64,000 bases of DNA from Chlamydiia bacterium (GCA_963804085.1 CAWDOQ010000010.1:128001-192000); one strand, 5' to 3'; counted from the first letter of the stretch, positions 16,583 through 57,744 are shown. Translations and numbers: made by a program. The notes: generated by a model not told the origin, from the letters alone.

Positions 16583-17540
16583 ATGAAACGAATATTTATC
16601 ACAGGAATAGCAGGATTCATCGGATACCATCTGGCCTCTTTTCTCAAGAAGAGAGGGGATTTTGTCATTGGTTGCGATAATTTTAACTCCTACTATGATC
16701 CTCGGCTCAAAAAAGAGCGCGCCCGAAGATTAGCAGAATTAGGAATTATCGTCTTCGAGAGTGACATCCGCAAGCCCATCTCTTATCGAAAAAGCTATCG
16801 TCGAACATAAGATCACACACTTTGTTCATCTCGCTGCGCAAGCAGGTGTGCGCCATTCGCTCAAGCATCCCGAAGCTTACGTTGAGACAAATCTCGATGG
16901 CTTTGTGCAAATACTAGAAGTAATTAGACGCCATCCTCACATATAACTCACCTATGCCTCCTCCTCATCGGTCTACGGACTCAACACCAAAATCCCCTTT
17001 GCTGAAGATGACCGAACAGACTCACCCGCTAACCTCTATGGCGCGACAAAAAAGTCCAATGAGCTTCTCGCACACGCCTATCATCATCTGTACGGAATTG
17101 CGACAACAGGCCTCCGCTACTTCACCGTGTATGGCCCCTGGGGCCGTCCCGACATGGCCTACTTCGCTTTCACTGATGCCATTGCAAACGGAAAACCGAT
17201 CCAGCTCTACAACGAGGGCAAGATGCGGCGCGACTTTACCTACATCGACGATATCGTCCAAGGAACAGCCGCAGCCATCGACTTAGAAGCACAAAATGAG
17301 ATCTTCAACTTAGGAAACCACCATCCCGAAGATCTCCTCACCCTCGTCTCTCTTCTCGAAAAACTCACAGGCAAAAAAGCGATCAAGCAGCTCCTGCCCC
17401 CACAACCGGGCGAAGTGCTAATCACCTACGCCGACATCACCAAAAGCAAAAAAATGCTTAACTTCTCTCCCAAAACCAGCCTCGCCGACGGCCTCTCCCA
17501 CTTCATCTCCTGGTATAATCAACATAAATGCAATATTTAA
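16583..17540 (+). pseudogene. UDP-glucuronate 4-epimerase (SDR) with a frameshift (~16775) and an in-frame TAA (16944-16946)
   Basis: [42 protein letters not shown] pieces in order. Confidence 0.85.
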
Positions 17541-17603
17541 ATTTTTAATATTATCAAAAAACCCCTCTCGTTTTTGTTACAAATATGTTATAATAGTTGA
17601 CCT

Positions 17604-54346: not shown

Positions 54347-55588
54347 ATGTCTATGCGTCCTGTTGCTACAGCTGTTGTGAAAAAACTTGTCCAAGCAGGC
54401 CACACTGCCTACTTTGCAGGGGGCTGGGTACGCGACTTTCTGATGAAGCACCCCTCAGATGATATAGATATTGCGACAAGCGCCTCAGTTGCAGAGATCC
54501 AGGCTCTTTTCCCAAAAACCATTCCCGTAGGCGTCGCCTTTGGCATCGTCATTGTGGTGCATGAGGGGGTACAATTTGAGGTGGCTACCTTTCGAAAGGA
54601 GCATGGCTATGTCGATGGAAGAAGACCTACTGGAATTGAACCGGCCACCCCTGAAGAGGATGCTGAACGGCGCGACTTTACGATAAATGGGATGTTCTAC
54701 GATCCATTACAAGAGAAGCTCTTCGACTTTGTGGATGGGCAAAAGGATATCGAAAGAAAAATTATCCGCGCCATTGGCAACCCTCACCAGCGTTTTTTAG
54801 AGGACCGGTTACGTATGATGCGGGCGGTCCGCTACTCTACGCGCTTCAACTTTCCGATAGAGAAAGAAACAGCACAGGCCATTTTGGCGCATGCGATGAG
54901 CCTCCTGCCTTCTGTCGCAATGGAAAGGGTATGGCAAGAGTTTAAAAAAATGGCGCAATTTGCCCATTTTGATAGAGGTCTCGTTATACTCCATGAACTC
55001 CATCTTCTTCCTGTCATCTTTCCGAAGCTCAAGAATGTAACGAAAGAAGAGATGGAAGAGCGCGTGCGGGCAATCCCCCTCTTTCCTAAGGGGACGCCTC
55101 CCATCGGCGAGCTTATGGAGCTCTTTCCCAATAGCTCTTTAGATGAGCTTGAGGAGCTCTCGGACTATCTCAAACTCTCAAGACAAGACCGTCTATTTGT
55201 TGGTTTCTTGCACCATGCAAAAACTCTTTTAAGCATGCCGGATGAGTGGCAAAACAAGCTGGAAAAAATAGAGTGGGCGGAGTTTTACGCATCTCCCTAT
55301 TTCGAGACCGCCCTCCAAATAGTAGCCGCGCACTATGCTCCCGAAAAGAGGGATCTGTTTTTACAAACACATGTGCGGCGCAAAAAAACAATAGAAAAGG
55401 CAATCTTGCGCATCCAGACCCAAAATCCCGTCGTACGCGCAGAGGATCTCATGGAGCAGGGGATCACACCCGGAAAAAAAATGGGGCATCTTTTAAAGGA
55501 AGCGGCTAGAATTGCAACCGATCAAGATCTTGAAGACAAAAAGAAGATAATCGAGCAGCTAAAAAAATCTTCCCTATGGCACGATTAA
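54347..55588 (+). CDS. cca: tRNA nucleotidyltransferase (CCA-adding / PcnB superfamily)
   Basis: GGWVRD..DIDI, RRDFTING, EDRLR; poly(A) polymerase G(R/K)(R/K)F signature absent. Confidence 0.75.
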   Translation: MSMRPVATAVVKKLVQAGHTAYFAGGWVRDFLMKHPSDDIDIATSASVAEIQALFPKTIPVGVAFGIVIVVHEGVQFEVATFRKEHGYVDGRRPTGIEPATPEEDAERRDFTINGMFYDPLQEKLFDFVDGQKDIERKIIRAIGNPHQRFLEDRLRMMRAVRYSTRFNFPIEKETAQAILAHAMSLLPSVAMERVWQEFKKMAQFAHFDRGLVILHELHLLPVIFPKLKNVTKEEMEERVRAIPLFPKGTPPIGELMELFPNSSLDELEELSDYLKLSRQDRLFVGFLHHAKTLLSMPDEWQNKLEKIEWAEFYASPYFETALQIVAAHYAPEKRDLFLQTHVRRKKTIEKAILRIQTQNPVVRAEDLMEQGITPGKKMGHLLKEAARIATDQDLEDKKKIIEQLKKSSLWHD

Positions 55589-57744
55589 AAAGAATTTCTC
55601 TCTCTTTCCTCTTTACGTTTGCGGTAATTTCCGGGCTATTTTTTGCAGTCGATCGCTTTTGCCACCCCTCTTTTAACAACCGCTTTCTAGAGAAGATCAC
55701 CTCGGTTCTGCCCTACAATCCAGAGTGGGAGCTCCCTCCTCTTTCTAAAGAGGAGCAATCAAAAGTTGAGACGATTTTATCGCAACCCTTCTCCTATCTT
55801 GGCAAGGGATGCCAGGTATACGCCTTCATCAGCCAAGATAAGCAATATGTTCTTAAGGTTTTTAAGCAGCGCTCGACACAAGAACGTTCATTTTTAGACA
55901 GACTCCCCTTCTCTTTTAATCCGTTTTATAAAGACAAGCTGCGCAGAATGGCCAACTTTCAAGATGCGATGGAAAGTAGCAAAACTGCATTTTTAGAGCT
56001 CAAAGATGATGCGGCACTCCTCTATGGACATCTGACAAAAAAAGAGGAGAGTCCCCGACTTATCGCTATCACTGATAAACAAGGTAGAAACTTCCAGGTC
56101 GACATAAACGACACCGCCTTTGTTGTGCAAAAAAAAGCAGACCTTCTCTACCCACGCATCGCCTCTTTTATGAAGCAGGGAGATACGGAAGGAGCAAAGA
56201 GGACGATCTCCTCTCTTTTAACCTTCTTAGAAAAGCTTTCGCGCAAAGGGGTCGTGGGCAATGACCCGAGTCTGCGCAAAAACTTTGGTTTTGTCCAAGG
56301 CCATCCCATCCAGATCGATGTGGGAAGATTAAAAATAGATCCGACAAGAGCGCGCTCCTCCACTTTCAAGGCGGATCTCGGCAACATCACCCAAAGTTTT
56401 AAAACATGGCTCTGTGAGAACTACCCGGAGCTGAACCCATTTTTTGAAGAGGCACTGAATGCTACCCTCTCCTTTCCTCAGATCAAGATCGACGTCTCCT
56501 CTCTCATCTCTCTTGCGGACGAGGAGATCCAAGTCTCTCTATCGGGTTTTAAACCCTATCAAAAGATTCTCCTAGAAGCGCAAACAGTCGATAAAGAGGG
56601 GGAAAAATGGTCCTCCTTTGCCGCTTTTCAAGCAGATAGCCATGGAATGATTAAACTAAAAGAGCAAGCTCCCCTGCACGGCAGCTACAACTGCAAAGAC
56701 TCGATGGGTCTCTTCTGGTCGATGCGGCCTGAATCGGGAGTGACAAAGGAGTTTCAAACAAGAGATGACATGATAGAGATCGAGCTGAGAGTCCCGCTCC
56801 AAGATCAGTTCATCTGCTCGCAAAAGATCGTGCGCATGAAAAAAGCGCCCTATGTCACACGCCACCTCATCCAGGAGAACGGGATTGTCGGCGCACTCTT
56901 TCTTCCTCCCTCCTCTACTCCTTTGCCGCTTGTCATCACGTTGAGTGGTTCAAACGGAGGTTTAAGCGAAAGCCGCGCTAAGCTGCTCGCCTCGCGCGGA
57001 TTTGCGACGCTTGCCTTGGGCTATTTTGCAACAGACGGATTACCTCCCACGCTCGAAAAAATCCCGATGGAGTATTTCGAAAAGGCGTTTTCTTGGATCG
57101 CCTCTCATCCTGCTATCGACGCTAGCCGCGTTGCAGTCTATGGCGTCTCGCGCGGAGGAGAGCTCTCGCTTCTTTTAGGCAGCCTCTTTCCCGATAAGAT
57201 TAAAGCGATCGTCGCTACCGTGCCAAGCTCTGCCCTCTATGCGGGATTAAGAGACTACACCTCTCCTGCTTGGGTCCACAAAGGAAAGGCGATTAAACCC
57301 AATGCGCCTTTTCCTCTCTTTGCGATAAAACTTACTGAAGGAAAAGACCCGAGCAAACCCTTTGTTTCAACCCCCTACTTTTTGCAAGGAATGCAGAACA
57401 AAAAAGCGTTTGAAGCCGCTAGCATCGAAGTAGAAGCGATTGAGTGTCCGATACTCTTAATCTCGGGAGGAGATGATCAGATCTGGCCCTCATTTCTCTT
57501 CGCCAAACAGGTTGAGCAGAACTTAAAAAACAAGGGCTCTTGCAGCGAGTGCCAGCACCTCTATTATCCCAAAGCCGGCCATCAGATAAACATCCCCTTC
57601 CACCCCGCAGCCGATCCCGTCTACTTCCATCCTGTAGTCGAGCGCTGGTTTGCCATGGGCGGAACACCCCAAGAAGATGAGCTTGCCAGCCGCGACTCCT
57701 GGACCAAAATCTGCACCTTCTTACACAAAACCCTCGGCTTTTAG
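55576..57744 (+). CDS. fusion of membrane-anchored kinase-like domain and BAAT/acyl-CoA thioesterase hydrolase
   Basis: YLGKG.Q...YVLK...NFGF...IDVG; then GSNGG, GVSRGGE, GGDD, AGH. Confidence 0.75.
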   Translation: MARLKRISLSFLFTFAVISGLFFAVDRFCHPSFNNRFLEKITSVLPYNPEWELPPLSKEEQSKVETILSQPFSYLGKGCQVYAFISQDKQYVLKVFKQRSTQERSFLDRLPFSFNPFYKDKLRRMANFQDAMESSKTAFLELKDDAALLYGHLTKKEESPRLIAITDKQGRNFQVDINDTAFVVQKKADLLYPRIASFMKQGDTEGAKRTISSLLTFLEKLSRKGVVGNDPSLRKNFGFVQGHPIQIDVGRLKIDPTRARSSTFKADLGNITQSFKTWLCENYPELNPFFEEALNATLSFPQIKIDVSSLISLADEEIQVSLSGFKPYQKILLEAQTVDKEGEKWSSFAAFQADSHGMIKLKEQAPLHGSYNCKDSMGLFWSMRPESGVTKEFQTRDDMIEIELRVPLQDQFICSQKIVRMKKAPYVTRHLIQENGIVGALFLPPSSTPLPLVITLSGSNGGLSESRAKLLASRGFATLALGYFATDGLPPTLEKIPMEYFEKAFSWIASHPAIDASRVAVYGVSRGGELSLLLGSLFPDKIKAIVATVPSSALYAGLRDYTSPAWVHKGKAIKPNAPFPLFAIKLTEGKDPSKPFVSTPYFLQGMQNKKAFEAASIEVEAIECPILLISGGDDQIWPSFLFAKQVEQNLKNKGSCSECQHLYYPKAGHQINIPFHPAADPVYFHPVVERWFAMGGTPQEDELASRDSWTKICTFLHKTLGF

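What the first reader, a model, noticed from the sequence alone, without database searches (positions are those of the whole stretch)
17400..57740. Genes flanking insertion sites are C-rich on the left and G-rich on the right regardless of coding strand
Seen (hand counts on the + strand, approximate). Left of elements or islets: 44721-44830 C48/G15, 39601-39690 C48/G13 (partly a Pro-rich tail), 17401-17520 C44/G17, 57561-57640 C33/G11, 49321-49420 C39/G23. Right of them: 45601-45700 G38/C12, 40291-40380 G31/C13, 51561-51660 G40/C13, 29201-29320 G45/C22, 22391-22510 G44/C25. glgC and the phosphoesterase are both + strand, yet the skew flips across the element between them. Established: Rho loads on C-rich, G-poor RNA. 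Inference: any transcript heading into a hotspot, sense or antisense, is C-rich. This suggests bidirectional Rho-type insulation written into synonymous codons, or a strand-specific mutational footprint of repeated gain and loss of elements. The windows were chosen by eye, so selection bias is possible.
Basis: partly seen in the sequence, partly recalled or inferred. Interest (0 to 1): 0.72.

Follow-up and report, generated by a model that had tools for sequence, protein, structure and literature searches.

The report
C-rich gene tails facing inserted DNA
In this bacterium the last fifty or so codons of genes that run into palindromic repeat elements or foreign-looking gene islets are rewritten with C-ending synonymous codons, which most likely makes a loading site for the terminator protein Rho, while the claimed mirror effect at gene starts is not real.

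Summary
All ten hand counts are exact, but the windows were picked: the stated range holds 35 regions with |GC skew| >= 0.4. Seven of the ten windows are gene 3' ends that are C-rich on their own sense strand. Three are gene 5' ends.

Genome-wide (2.13 Mb, my own gene calls) the 3' part holds. Genes with a repeat within 150 nt downstream have a four-fold-site (C-G)/(C+G) of +0.50 in the last 99 nt, against +0.27 in their bodies (n=206). Other genes give +0.29 against +0.22 (n=1098; p=1e-9). The C3 plateau covers about the last 50 codons. It is strongest beside long palindromes and GGAC-array elements, is also present beside low-GC islets, and is absent beside short GC hairpins.

Gene 5' ends show no repeat-specific effect. 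"Regardless of coding strand" therefore fails.

The pattern replicates in a relative of another genus that shares the elements. Among orthologues the C-tail follows whichever genome carries the insertion. rho is present and canonical.

Best reading: Rho-type insulation written in synonymous codons. No transcript data exist to test it.

The parts
44685..44834 (+). C-rich tail of glgC (last ~50 codons); nearly every codon ends in C
   Evidence: Window 44721-44830 has C48/G15. The last 120 nt have C50/G17, against C17-35/G18-33 in 19 relatives whose amino-acid sequence is conserved to the last residue. The Pfam LbH_GLGC match reaches residue 434 of 435.
44835..45566 (.). Inserted ~730-bp imperfect palindrome (family 2) with a nested smaller palindrome that carries terminator-like hairpins plus T-runs on both strands
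   Evidence: Inverted arms 44906-44955/45480-45529 and 44989-45042/45407-45460, 82-85% complementary. Repeat interval 44905-45466, family 2. Hairpins at 45174-45191 and 45255-45272. In 14 of 19 relatives the phosphoesterase gene starts within 100 nt of the glgC stop; I read this by eye.
45567..45700 (+). G-rich head of the phosphoesterase gene (true start 45567; my caller put it at 45624)
   Evidence: Window 45601-45700 has G38/C12. The orthologous 102 nt has G39/C12 here against G20-31/C10-25 in 17 relatives, of which 15 also have G>C. It is a single-locus outlier and is not backed by genome-wide head statistics.
39553..39702 (+). C-rich, partly Pro-rich tail of secA
   Evidence: Window 39601-39690 has C48/G13. 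Pfam SecA domains. All-site skew of +0.51 for the last 99 coding nt.
39703..40290 (.). Family-2 long imperfect palindrome between two convergent 3' ends
   Evidence: Repeat interval 39738-40251. Inverted arms 39804-39858/40127-40181, 85% complementary.
40291..40440 (-). Tail of the minus-strand ORF 40291-40833 (no Pfam family), C-rich on its sense strand
   Evidence: Window 40291-40380 has G31/C13 on the + strand. Window 40291-40390 has G35/C15.
51463..51555 (.). ~90-nt GC-rich perfect-palindrome hairpin repeat (family 1), directly after the stop of the M24 peptidase gene
   Evidence: Sequence read. Family 1, coverage of 97 hits.
51562..51711 (-). C-rich (sense) tail of the M24 peptidase gene
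   Evidence: Window 51561-51660 has G40/C13 on the + strand. Note that, as a class, tails beside families 0 and 1 are barely raised.
17391..17540 (+). C-rich tail of an epimerase gene fragment, facing the low-GC LRR/Fic islet at 17604-22237
   Evidence: Window 17401-17520 has C44/G17. C3 is 0.51 over the fragment. Pfam Epimerase positions 172-240 only.
22387..22536 (-). Tail of the Nnr (Carb_kinase) C-terminal fragment facing the same islet from the right; modest skew
   Evidence: Window 22391-22510 has G44/C25, which lies in the outer 8.9% of windows only.
57595..57744 (+). C-rich tail of the BAAT-type acyl-CoA thioesterase gene, facing the low-GC AbiEii islet at 57862-59810
   Evidence: Window 57561-57640 has C33/G11. 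Neighbour GC is 0.40-0.42.
29199..29320 (+). ruvC head; G-rich, but the whole gene is G3-rich, so it is not part of the phenomenon
   Evidence: G45/C22. Gene-wide G3 is 0.35 and C3 is 0.20.
49321..49446 (-). Histidine-kinase head; skew is ordinary, so it is not part of the phenomenon
   Evidence: C39/G23. Lies in the outer 13.8% of windows.
49531..49688 (.). Partial family-2/4 element; the 3' tail to its right (49690-49789) is a counter-example
   Evidence: Window 49690-49789 has G16/C26 on the + strand for a minus-strand gene.

Best explanation
The real feature is a synonymous ramp toward C-ending codons. In genes transcribed toward certain inserted DNA, third-position C rises from about 0.30 to 0.40-0.45 over roughly the last 50 codons. 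The inserted DNA is of two kinds: long palindromic or GGAC-array repeat elements, and low-GC accessory islets. G, T and A all fall, amino-acid usage hardly changes, and purine content drops from 0.51 to 0.47.

The most likely function is at the RNA level. The C-rich, G-poor end of the message would act as a loading (rut-like) site for termination factor Rho. Transcription coming out of a resident gene would then be stopped at or just inside the inserted DNA, and would not read through a several-hundred-base palindrome or into foreign genes. Where two genes converge on an element, both tails are C-rich on their own strand. That produces the C-left/G-right picture on the + strand.

Shown here: the compositional pattern, its specificity, its replication in a second genus, its tracking of the insertion, and the presence of rho.

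Inferred: that Rho reads the tails, and that they were selected after insertion.
For: 1. Strength and specificity.
- Tails with a repeat within 150 nt downstream: four-fold (C-G)/(C+G) is +0.501 against a body value of +0.267 (n=206). Without a repeat it is +0.287 against +0.217 (n=1098). Mann-Whitney p=1.3e-9; against long repeat-free intergenic regions p=2e-6.
- The median tail-minus-body change in C3 is +0.14 beside families 2-5, with 78% of 82 genes positive. For core-to-core junctions it is -0.02 (n=483); p=1.6e-15.

2. Islets without repeats. Tail C3 is 0.393 against a body value of 0.318 (n=86); for core-to-core junctions it is 0.306 against 0.322. p=5e-6.

3. The pressure acts on nucleotides and is not translational.
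- Every amino acid with a C-ending option shifts toward it.
- Ribosomal-protein genes have C3 of 0.281, no higher than the average of 0.293.
- Glycine falls from 0.065 to 0.045.

4. It depends on the direction of transcription. Flanks coding toward an element reach +0.10 to +0.14. Flanks coding away from it stay near 0.

5. It is unrelated to downstream hairpin stability. Among repeat-free genes the less structured downstream regions carry the more C-rich tails, +0.38 against +0.21. This fits a division of labour between Rho-dependent and intrinsic terminators.

6. Lineage evidence.
- The glgC tail has C50/G17, against C17-35/G18-33 in 19 relatives with a conserved protein tail. Most of those relatives have the next gene within 100 nt.
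- In relative G013, which shares family-2-like repeats, repeat-adjacent tails change by +0.096 (n=32) against +0.007 (n=225), p=0.0025. The 13 family-2-like cases have tail C3 of 0.464.
- Relative G004 has no such repeats and no ramp.
- Orthologue pairs where only G013 has the repeat: G013 +0.145, G000 +0.018 (n=16, paired p=0.021).
- Pairs where only G000 has the repeat: G000 +0.146, G013 +0.055 (n=11, p=0.054).
- The junction in the other genus is tight, with a median of 37 or 7 nt.

7. Repeat-free tails still correlate between the two genera at 67% amino-acid identity (rho=0.37, p=7e-4, n=79). That suggests the tails are maintained.

8. rho is present (704 bits against TIGR00767) with Rho_N, Rho_RNA_bind and ATPase domains.

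9. Passages read in PMC13323073 report that synonymous recoding toward pyrimidines made a B. subtilis gene a Rho target.
Against: - There is no transcript evidence of any kind.
- The C-rich stretch lies inside translated sequence, where ribosomes should hinder Rho.
- The 40 spacers between the stop codon and an element are not C-rich (-0.005), and the first 60 nt after the stop are G-rich. If selection were building a rut site, free noncoding sequence would be the easy place for it. The spacers may, however, be part of the insertion.
- G is not depleted at two-fold purine-ending codons, so this is C enrichment more than G avoidance.
- Convergent, repeat-free gene ends, which must be transcription-unit ends, show no ramp (+0.257 against +0.216, n=125).
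- C-tail strength does not grow with element divergence. That sits badly with slow adaptation after insertion, especially in a lineage likely to have a small effective population size.
- The grouping of families 2-5 and the GC thresholds for islets were chosen after I had seen the data.
- Gene calls are my own ad hoc caller.
- The relatives were sampled at 400 kb each.
Confidence: 0.45

Rival explanations
1. Insertion or retention preference. C-rich tails are pre-existing signals, for example Rho-dependent terminators of some genes. Elements and islets either land there preferentially or survive only there, because transcription does not enter them.
For: - C-tail strength is independent of how diverged the element copy is. 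The youngest third of copies (91.5-100% identity to a sibling) already has a four-fold value of +0.67.
- Several unrelated repeat families and the islets share the association.
- C-tails exist without repeats: 31 of 1098 tails reach >= 0.4.
- Repeat-free tails correlate between two genera.
Against: - Orthologues in the genome that lacks the insertion do not carry the tail (+0.018 and +0.055, against a baseline of +0.001 and +0.017). Their junctions are tight, with a median of 37 or 7 nt, which looks like an operon and not like a terminator.
- glgC in 19 relatives has no C-tail.
- 78% of genes beside families 2-5 are shifted, while only about 10% of core-to-core tails reach a comparable delta. 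The filter would have to be very strong.
Confidence: 0.2
2. Local strand-specific mutation bias linked to the elements, for example repair or stalling at large palindromes. It would enrich C on the strand transcribed toward them without any function.
For: - C rises slightly at codon positions 1 and 2 as well, and glycine falls, as a mutation pressure would produce.
- The lineage looks host-associated (ankyrin, LRR, Fic and DUF1494 proteins; the inference is mine), so selection on single synonymous sites may be weak.
- The tail follows the insertion.
Against: - There is no effect on flanks that code away from the element, and little on noncoding flanks.
- Spacers between the stop codon and the element are neutral.
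- The very stable family 0/1 hairpins have no effect.
- Islets without repeats do have the effect.
- The known transcription-associated bias, C-to-T on the non-template strand (recalled), would lower sense-strand C and not raise it.
- The change needs T-to-C, G-to-C and A-to-C together.
Confidence: 0.12
3. A different RNA-level role for the C-rich tail. It could keep the end of the coding region from pairing with the G-rich first arm of the element. It could protect the message's 3' end from nucleases once the palindrome has been cut. It could bind another C-specific protein.
For: - In families 2-5 the element arm read first is G-rich (-0.08 and -0.13 in the first 60 nt after the stop). These are the families with the strongest tails.
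- The ramp ends at the stop codon.
Against: - A C-rich tail would pair with a G-rich arm and not avoid it.
- Islet junctions have no such arm and still show tails.
- No candidate protein was identified.
Confidence: 0.13
4. One reading: insulation is bidirectional, so gene 5' ends facing hotspots are G-rich on the sense strand and antisense transcripts are also C-rich.
For: - The phosphoesterase head (G39/C12) is the extreme among 18 orthologues.
- 6 of 56 heads beside families 2-5 have a sense (C-G)/(C+G) <= -0.3, against 41 of 1128 without repeats (Fisher p=0.02, threshold chosen post hoc).
- Heads beside repeats within 60 nt have a four-fold value of +0.055, against +0.19.
- Errors in my start-codon calls blur the head analysis.
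Against: - Mean head skew does not depend on repeats once intergenic length is matched: +0.113 against +0.115.
- Mann-Whitney p=0.43 for families 2-5 and p=0.06 for islets.
- G3 is not raised in heads, 0.245-0.247 against 0.23-0.24.
- At four-fold sites the sense strand still has C>G, so antisense RNA would be G-rich there.
- ruvC is G3-rich along its whole length, and the kinase head is ordinary.
Confidence: 0.08

Closest known systems
Rho-dependent terminators (rut sites: C-rich, G-poor, unstructured RNA)
   Same: About 100-150 nt of C>G RNA just upstream of the place where transcription should stop. A canonical rho gene is present. Less structured downstream regions go with more C-rich tails.
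   Different: The signal lies wholly inside translated sequence and is written at synonymous positions. It stops at the stop codon. It occurs at junctions with inserted DNA and not at transcription-unit ends in general. Dependence on Rho is untested.
Rho as a shaper of coding-sequence composition (purine bias as Rho avoidance; PMC13323073, passages read)
   Same: Both rest on the same principle: synonymous pyrimidine content decides whether Rho acts on a coding sequence. Here purine content falls from 0.511 to 0.469 in the tails.
   Different: That work describes genome-wide avoidance of Rho. This would be the converse, a local recruitment signal placed at gene ends beside mobile DNA. The gain here is C only, because T falls as well.
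Rho-mediated silencing of horizontally acquired DNA and Rho-dependent attenuation at REP/BIME repeats in E. coli (Cardinale et al. 2008; Espeli et al. 2001; both recalled, not read here)
   Same: Rho limits transcription of foreign or repetitive DNA. Extragenic palindromes sit at gene ends.
   Different: In those cases the signal is sought in the foreign or repeat DNA itself. Here it lies in the resident gene upstream, and the short REP-like hairpins (families 0/1) are the class without the effect.
MITE / REP-type palindromic intergenic repeats
   Same: Hundreds of copies, imperfect palindromes, mostly intergenic and close to stop codons.
   Different: The finding concerns the flanking resident genes and not the repeats. 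I found no report of a codon-usage ramp beside such elements in the two searches I made.

Membership tests
Rho-dependent terminator / rut site | C-rich, G-poor RNA stretch of roughly 70 nt or more upstream of the termination zone | tested here: met
   All-site (C-G)/(C+G) of +0.15 to +0.23 on average, and up to +0.6, over the last 99 nt. Four-fold sites give +0.59 to +0.70 beside families 2-5. The plateau covers about 50 codons.
Rho-dependent terminator / rut site | Rho factor with a primary RNA-binding domain encoded in the genome | tested here: met
   TIGR00767 at 704 bits, at C17:122263-123504. Pfam Rho_N, Rho_RNA_bind and ATP-synt_ab.
Rho-dependent terminator / rut site | Loading site accessible, that is untranslated or poorly translated and unstructured | tested here: inconclusive
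   The C-rich stretch is coding. The untranslated spacers are not C-rich. I did not compute the structure of the tails themselves.
Rho-dependent terminator / rut site | Transcript 3' ends downstream that disappear when Rho is inhibited | not testable with these tools
   No RNA run was listed for this DNA.
Replication-associated GC skew | The sign of the skew follows the replication strand and not gene orientation, and extends over many kilobases | tested here: not met
   Tails on both strands are C-rich on their own sense strand. The effect is confined to about 150 nt and to 3' ends.
Translational codon optimisation | The same codons are preferred in highly expressed (ribosomal-protein) genes | tested here: not met
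   C3 is 0.281 in 26 ribosomal-protein or translation genes, 0.293 in all genes and 0.435 in tails beside families 2-5.
GC-biased gene conversion at repeats | G and C both rise at third positions | tested here: not met
   C3 rises from 0.29 to 0.44 while G3 falls from 0.23 to 0.18.
MITE/REP-type repeat (the elements beside the tails) | Many dispersed copies with inverted-repeat architecture in intergenic DNA | tested here: met
   There are 359 repeat intervals, 326 of them in one similarity network. 73% have no overlap with called genes. Arms are 82-85% complementary.
MITE/REP-type repeat (the elements beside the tails) | Target-site duplication and a cognate transposase (or RAYT) in the genome | not tested
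   I did not examine this. I only noted that the family-3 terminal repeat can supply a gene's stop codon.

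The most novel reading that the evidence does not exclude
When a large palindromic element or a foreign islet lands behind a resident gene, often splitting what is a tight gene pair in the sister genus, the host lineage recodes the last ~50 codons of that gene to C-ending synonyms. 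This builds a Rho loading site inside the coding sequence, a synonymous firewall that evolves in response to mobile DNA. It has arisen independently at different genes in two genera.
Probability: 0.3. Interest if true: 0.82.

Novelty: new variant of a known kind. Interest (0 to 1): 0.62.

Why it matters
If the reading is right, synonymous sites at gene ends carry a transcription-insulation signal that tracks the arrival of mobile DNA. That would mean several things:
- It would be a host-side adaptation to MITE-like elements, or a targeting rule of those elements.
- It would give a sequence-only way to find Rho-dependent boundaries in uncultured bacteria.
- It would be a caution for codon-usage and dS analyses, which assume that gene ends are neutral.

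The system offers about 170 loci in one genome and a second genus with independent insertions. The question of which came first, the insertion or the signal, can therefore be tested with strain-level data.

If the effect turns out to be mutational, it would be an undescribed mutagenic effect of palindromes that depends on the direction of transcription.

Tried and rejected
- RNA evidence: no RNA holder was listed for window 43500-46400, so no reads were laid.
- Closer relatives: the metagenome scan with GlgC gave at most 64% identity. All 30 genome relatives belong to other genera, with at most 66% identity. Insertion-polymorphic sister strains could therefore not be compared.
- Earlier notes of this scan: none for this genome or for these words.
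- Hairpin stability as the driver: rejected. Tail skew does not follow the folding energy of the 100 nt after the stop.
- Element age as a clock for the C-tail: no trend (Spearman -0.18, p=0.10, n=82). The proxy is crude.
- Translational optimality, GC-biased conversion and replication skew: rejected (see the membership tests).
- Gene-end artefact (open reading frames running into degenerate repeat arms): rejected. Amino-acid usage in the tails is normal and the gain is at position 3. The effect holds when the repeat starts 31-150 nt after the stop (n=62, +0.522). It also holds for 11 genes whose C-termini align with orthologues.
- A general 3' ramp in all genes: only weak. Four-fold values are +0.27 to +0.36 against +0.21 to +0.25 in the body across repeat-free classes. 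It is absent in relative G004.
- Rfam and tRNA scans of the window found three tRNAs outside the region and no known RNA family at the junctions.
- Consensus scan of 36001-56000: promoter-like sites are not above shuffles (16 against 16.9). Terminator-like sites number 33 against 22.1, and several lie inside the elements.
- Literature: two searches found no description of C-enriched coding tails beside repeats. Of the papers listed, I read only passages of PMC12350095, bioRxiv 10.1101/2022.07.21.500918 and PMC13323073.

Full report
**Setting.** The window is G000:C10:128001-192000 of a 2.13-Mb draft genome (24 contigs, 47.9% GC, 91% complete, 5% contamination). Pfam annotation of 59 window proteins shows housekeeping genes: rpsB, tsf, frr, secA, glgC, ruvABC, mutL and lipoyl synthase. 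Between them lie low-GC genes for LRR, ankyrin, Fic and AbiEii proteins and a DUF1494 protein. I read this as a host-associated, probably chlamydia-like organism. That is my inference and I did not test it. There was no gene finder, so I wrote a dicodon-score caller. It gave 2154 genes and 87% coding. Stop codons are exact and start codons are approximate. For example, it placed the phosphoesterase start at 45624, whereas orthologues show 45567.

**The observation.**
- All ten hand counts are exact.
- Five windows lie in the outer 0.24-0.47% of same-length windows of the genome, and two more in the outer 0.8-1.1%. The other three are unremarkable, at 3.6%, 8.9% and 13.8%.
The stated range holds 35 separate regions with |skew| >= 0.4, most of them inside genes.
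- There are counter-examples beside elements: 49690-49789 has the wrong sign, and the two tails around 25524-25705 show no skew.
- Mapping the windows on genes gives the key simplification. Seven are gene 3' ends that are C-rich on their own sense strand. Three are gene 5' ends that are G-rich on their sense strand.

**Genome-wide test at 3' ends.**
- Aligned at stop codons, the sense-strand four-fold (C-G)/(C+G) rises from about +0.20-0.23 in gene bodies to +0.32-0.35 in the last 60 codons (833 genes).
- The rise is carried by particular junctions. I mapped repeats by BLAST of all intergenic regions against the genome. This gave 359 repeat intervals and 49 kb in total.
- With a repeat within 150 nt downstream, the tail reads +0.501 against a body value of +0.267 (n=206). 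Without one it reads +0.287 against +0.217 (n=1098). Mann-Whitney on all-site tail skew gives p=1.3e-9. Against repeat-free intergenic regions > 100 nt it gives p=2e-6.
- The ramp begins about 200 nt before the stop. It plateaus over the last ~50 codons, where C3 is 0.40-0.45 against about 0.30 further upstream.
- It is equally strong at convergent and tandem junctions, +0.50 in each.

**Which repeats carry it.** Repeats fall into families by Louvain clustering.
- Families 0, 1 and 6 are ~90-nt GC-rich perfect hairpins.
- Family 2 is a 560-700-bp imperfect palindrome. The elements at 39703-40290 and 44835-45566 belong to it.
- Families 3 and 4 are palindromes built of GTGGAC or NGGAC arrays.
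- Family 5 is a further type.
- The C-tail is strong beside families 2-5 (four-fold +0.59 to +0.70, n=82). It is near background beside families 0 and 1 (+0.33 to +0.37, n=83).
- I made this grouping after seeing the data.
- The median tail-minus-body change in C3 is +0.14 beside families 2-5, with 78% of genes positive. At core-to-core junctions it is -0.02. p=1.6e-15. The shift is therefore general and not a property of a small subclass.

**Islets.** I took core genes (GC >= 0.47) with no repeat whose downstream neighbour has GC <= 0.44. These thresholds are mine.
- They also have C-rich tails: C3 of 0.393 against 0.318 in the body (n=86). When the neighbour is also core the values are 0.306 against 0.322 (n=483). 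p=5e-6.

**Nature of the change.**
- In tails beside families 2-5, every amino acid with a choice shifts to its C-ending codon. Examples: CTC 0.26 to 0.50, GAC 0.38 to 0.64, TTC 0.32 to 0.58, ACC 0.29 to 0.51.
- T3, G3 and A3 all fall.
- Amino-acid frequencies barely move, apart from glycine (0.065 to 0.045).
- Ribosomal-protein genes do not prefer C-ending codons, with C3 of 0.281.
- Purine content falls from 0.511 to 0.469.
- These results exclude translational optimisation, GC-biased conversion (G3 falls) and replication skew.
- The tails are genuine coding sequence. The gain is at position 3. It holds when the repeat starts 31-150 nt beyond the stop. It also holds for genes whose C-termini align with orthologues.

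**Gene 5' ends.**
- For intergenic regions > 100 nt, head four-fold skew is +0.113 with repeats and +0.115 without.
- Heads beside families 2-5 do not differ from heads without repeats (p=0.43).
- Heads beside islets differ marginally (p=0.06) through slightly lower C3. G3 is not higher.
- On the strand read toward an element, flanks coding toward it reach +0.10 to +0.14. Flanks coding away stay between -0.03 and +0.04, and noncoding flanks are near +0.03.
- Two weak hints remain. The phosphoesterase head (G39/C12) is the extreme among 18 orthologues, 15 of 17 of which are already G>C there. And 6 of 56 heads beside families 2-5 are strongly G-rich, against 41 of 1128 (p=0.02, post hoc threshold).
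- ruvC is G3-rich over its whole length, and the kinase head is ordinary.
- My approximate start codons blur this analysis.

**Comparative evidence.**
- The GlgC tail is conserved in sequence in 19 relatives of other genera (52-66% identity). Its last 120 nt have C50/G17 here and C17-35/G18-33 in the relatives.
- In 14 of those 19 the phosphoesterase gene follows within 100 nt, whereas here a 730-bp palindrome intervenes (I made the count by eye).
- I sampled 400 kb from each of two relatives.
- G004 has essentially no such repeats: 0 of 123 intergenic regions have >= 5 hits. It has no ramp.
- G013 shares family-2-like and family-0-like repeats. There, repeat-adjacent tails change by +0.096 in C3 (n=32) against +0.007 (n=225), p=0.0025. 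The 13 family-2-like cases reach C3 of 0.464. The 10 hairpin cases show nothing. This is the same split as in G000.
- There are 110 orthologue pairs between G000 and G013 with aligned C-termini and 67% mean identity. Among them the tail follows the genome that has the repeat.
  - Only G013 has the repeat (n=16): G013 +0.145, G000 +0.018, paired p=0.021.
  - Only G000 has the repeat (n=11): G000 +0.146, G013 +0.055, p=0.054.
  - The junction in the repeat-free genome is tight, with a median of 37 and 7 nt.
- Pairs with no repeat in either genome average zero but correlate (rho=0.37, p=7e-4, n=79). The corresponding correlation with G004 is 0.11, not significant.
- These samples are small, and the relatives are not independent of each other.

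**Interpretation.** The pattern has five properties.
- It depends on the direction of transcription.
- It acts at the nucleotide level.
- It is concentrated at synonymous sites.
- It spans about 150 nt.
- It is tied to the presence of large palindromes or foreign-looking genes downstream.

C-rich, G-poor RNA is the classical Rho loading signal. rho is present and canonical. Passages I read in PMC13323073 show that synonymous pyrimidine enrichment alone can turn a coding sequence into a Rho target. Among repeat-free genes, C-rich tails go with less structured downstream sequence, as would be expected if they stand in for intrinsic terminators. I therefore favour Rho-type insulation of resident transcription from inserted DNA (confidence 0.45).

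The orthologue table, the tight junctions in the sister genus and the glgC case favour evolution after insertion over targeting of existing terminators. The lack of any age trend and the likely weakness of selection on single synonymous sites argue the other way.

Points against the Rho reading:
- The signal is inside translated sequence.
- Spacers beyond the stop are not C-rich (-0.005, 40 spacers).
- G is not depleted at two-fold purine-ending codons.
- Repeat-free convergent ends have no ramp.
- There is no transcript evidence.

A purely mutational footprint is disfavoured. Flanks coding away from the element, noncoding flanks and spacers are all unaffected. The known transcription-linked deamination bias (recalled) also works in the opposite direction.

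**Novelty.** Rho terminators, Rho silencing of foreign DNA and Rho's influence on codon usage are all known. A local C3 ramp in the last ~50 codons is a different observation: it is specific to junctions with palindromic elements and islets, it replicates in a second genus, and it tracks the insertion. I did not find it in two literature searches. I rate it a new variant of a known kind, of moderate to high interest, resting on strong statistics but an unproven mechanism.

Noticed in passing
window 45174-45191 / 45255-45272 and 49567-49584 / 49653-49670: Inside the elements, a GC hairpin (GCGGYGACTYGTCRCCGC) followed by a T-run occurs on both strands. It looks like a bidirectional intrinsic terminator carried by the mobile element.
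   Followed up: partly
G000 C17:103601-104380, C19:312809-313564, C18:7031-8158, C19:166677-168194 (outside the window): The terminal repeat of the GTGGAC-array element (AAGACCCCTAG...) abuts or overlaps the end of the upstream gene. In some cases it supplies the gene's TAG stop codon, so these elements insert at or within the last codons.
   Followed up: no
window 6270-8795 + 8825-9661; 16761-16946 + 17127-17540; 22387-22791 + 22844-23917: Three genes appear split into adjacent frames: a penicillin-binding protein, an NAD-dependent epimerase (fragments only) and the bifunctional Nnr/YjeF. These could be pseudogenes or assembly frameshifts.
   Followed up: no
whole genome: Per-gene C3 varies three times more than sampling predicts (sd 0.075 against 0.024). 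It trades off with T3 (r=-0.78) and is uncorrelated with G3 (r=0.00). This is a strong C-versus-T axis of codon usage among genes, and I have no explanation for it.
   Followed up: no
whole genome, gene 5' ends: Heads of genes that follow long intergenic regions have a lower four-fold C-G skew (+0.10 to +0.12) than heads inside tight gene runs (+0.25). This holds whether or not repeats are present.
   Followed up: partly
relatives G013:C6:100001-500000 and G004:C3:60001-460000: The long palindrome (family 2) and the GC hairpin (family 0) are shared with a relative of a different genus: 1079 BLAST hits in 400 kb. They are almost absent from another relative of the same family, with 24 hits.
   Followed up: partly
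window 9662-10727: A 1066-bp gap between called genes matches several places on contig C2 at 66-76% identity over 300-590 bp. It is a larger dispersed repeat or a decayed mobile gene. It lies next to a low-GC AAA_14/DUF4143 ATPase gene.
   Followed up: no
window 17604-22237, 34669-36553, 49690-51347, 57862-59810: Low-GC islets (GC 0.40-0.47, C3 0.17-0.26) encode two paralogous LRR proteins plus a Fic protein, ankyrin-repeat proteins, and an AbiEii-type toxin with an upstream partner. This gene content is typical of host-associated bacteria.
   Followed up: no
families 2-5 downstream profile: Read from the upstream gene, the first ~60 nt after the stop codon are G-rich (-0.08 and -0.13) and the next arm is C-rich (+0.10 to +0.12). 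A C-rich coding tail is therefore followed directly by a G-rich element arm. Possible pairing between the two was not examined.
   Followed up: no
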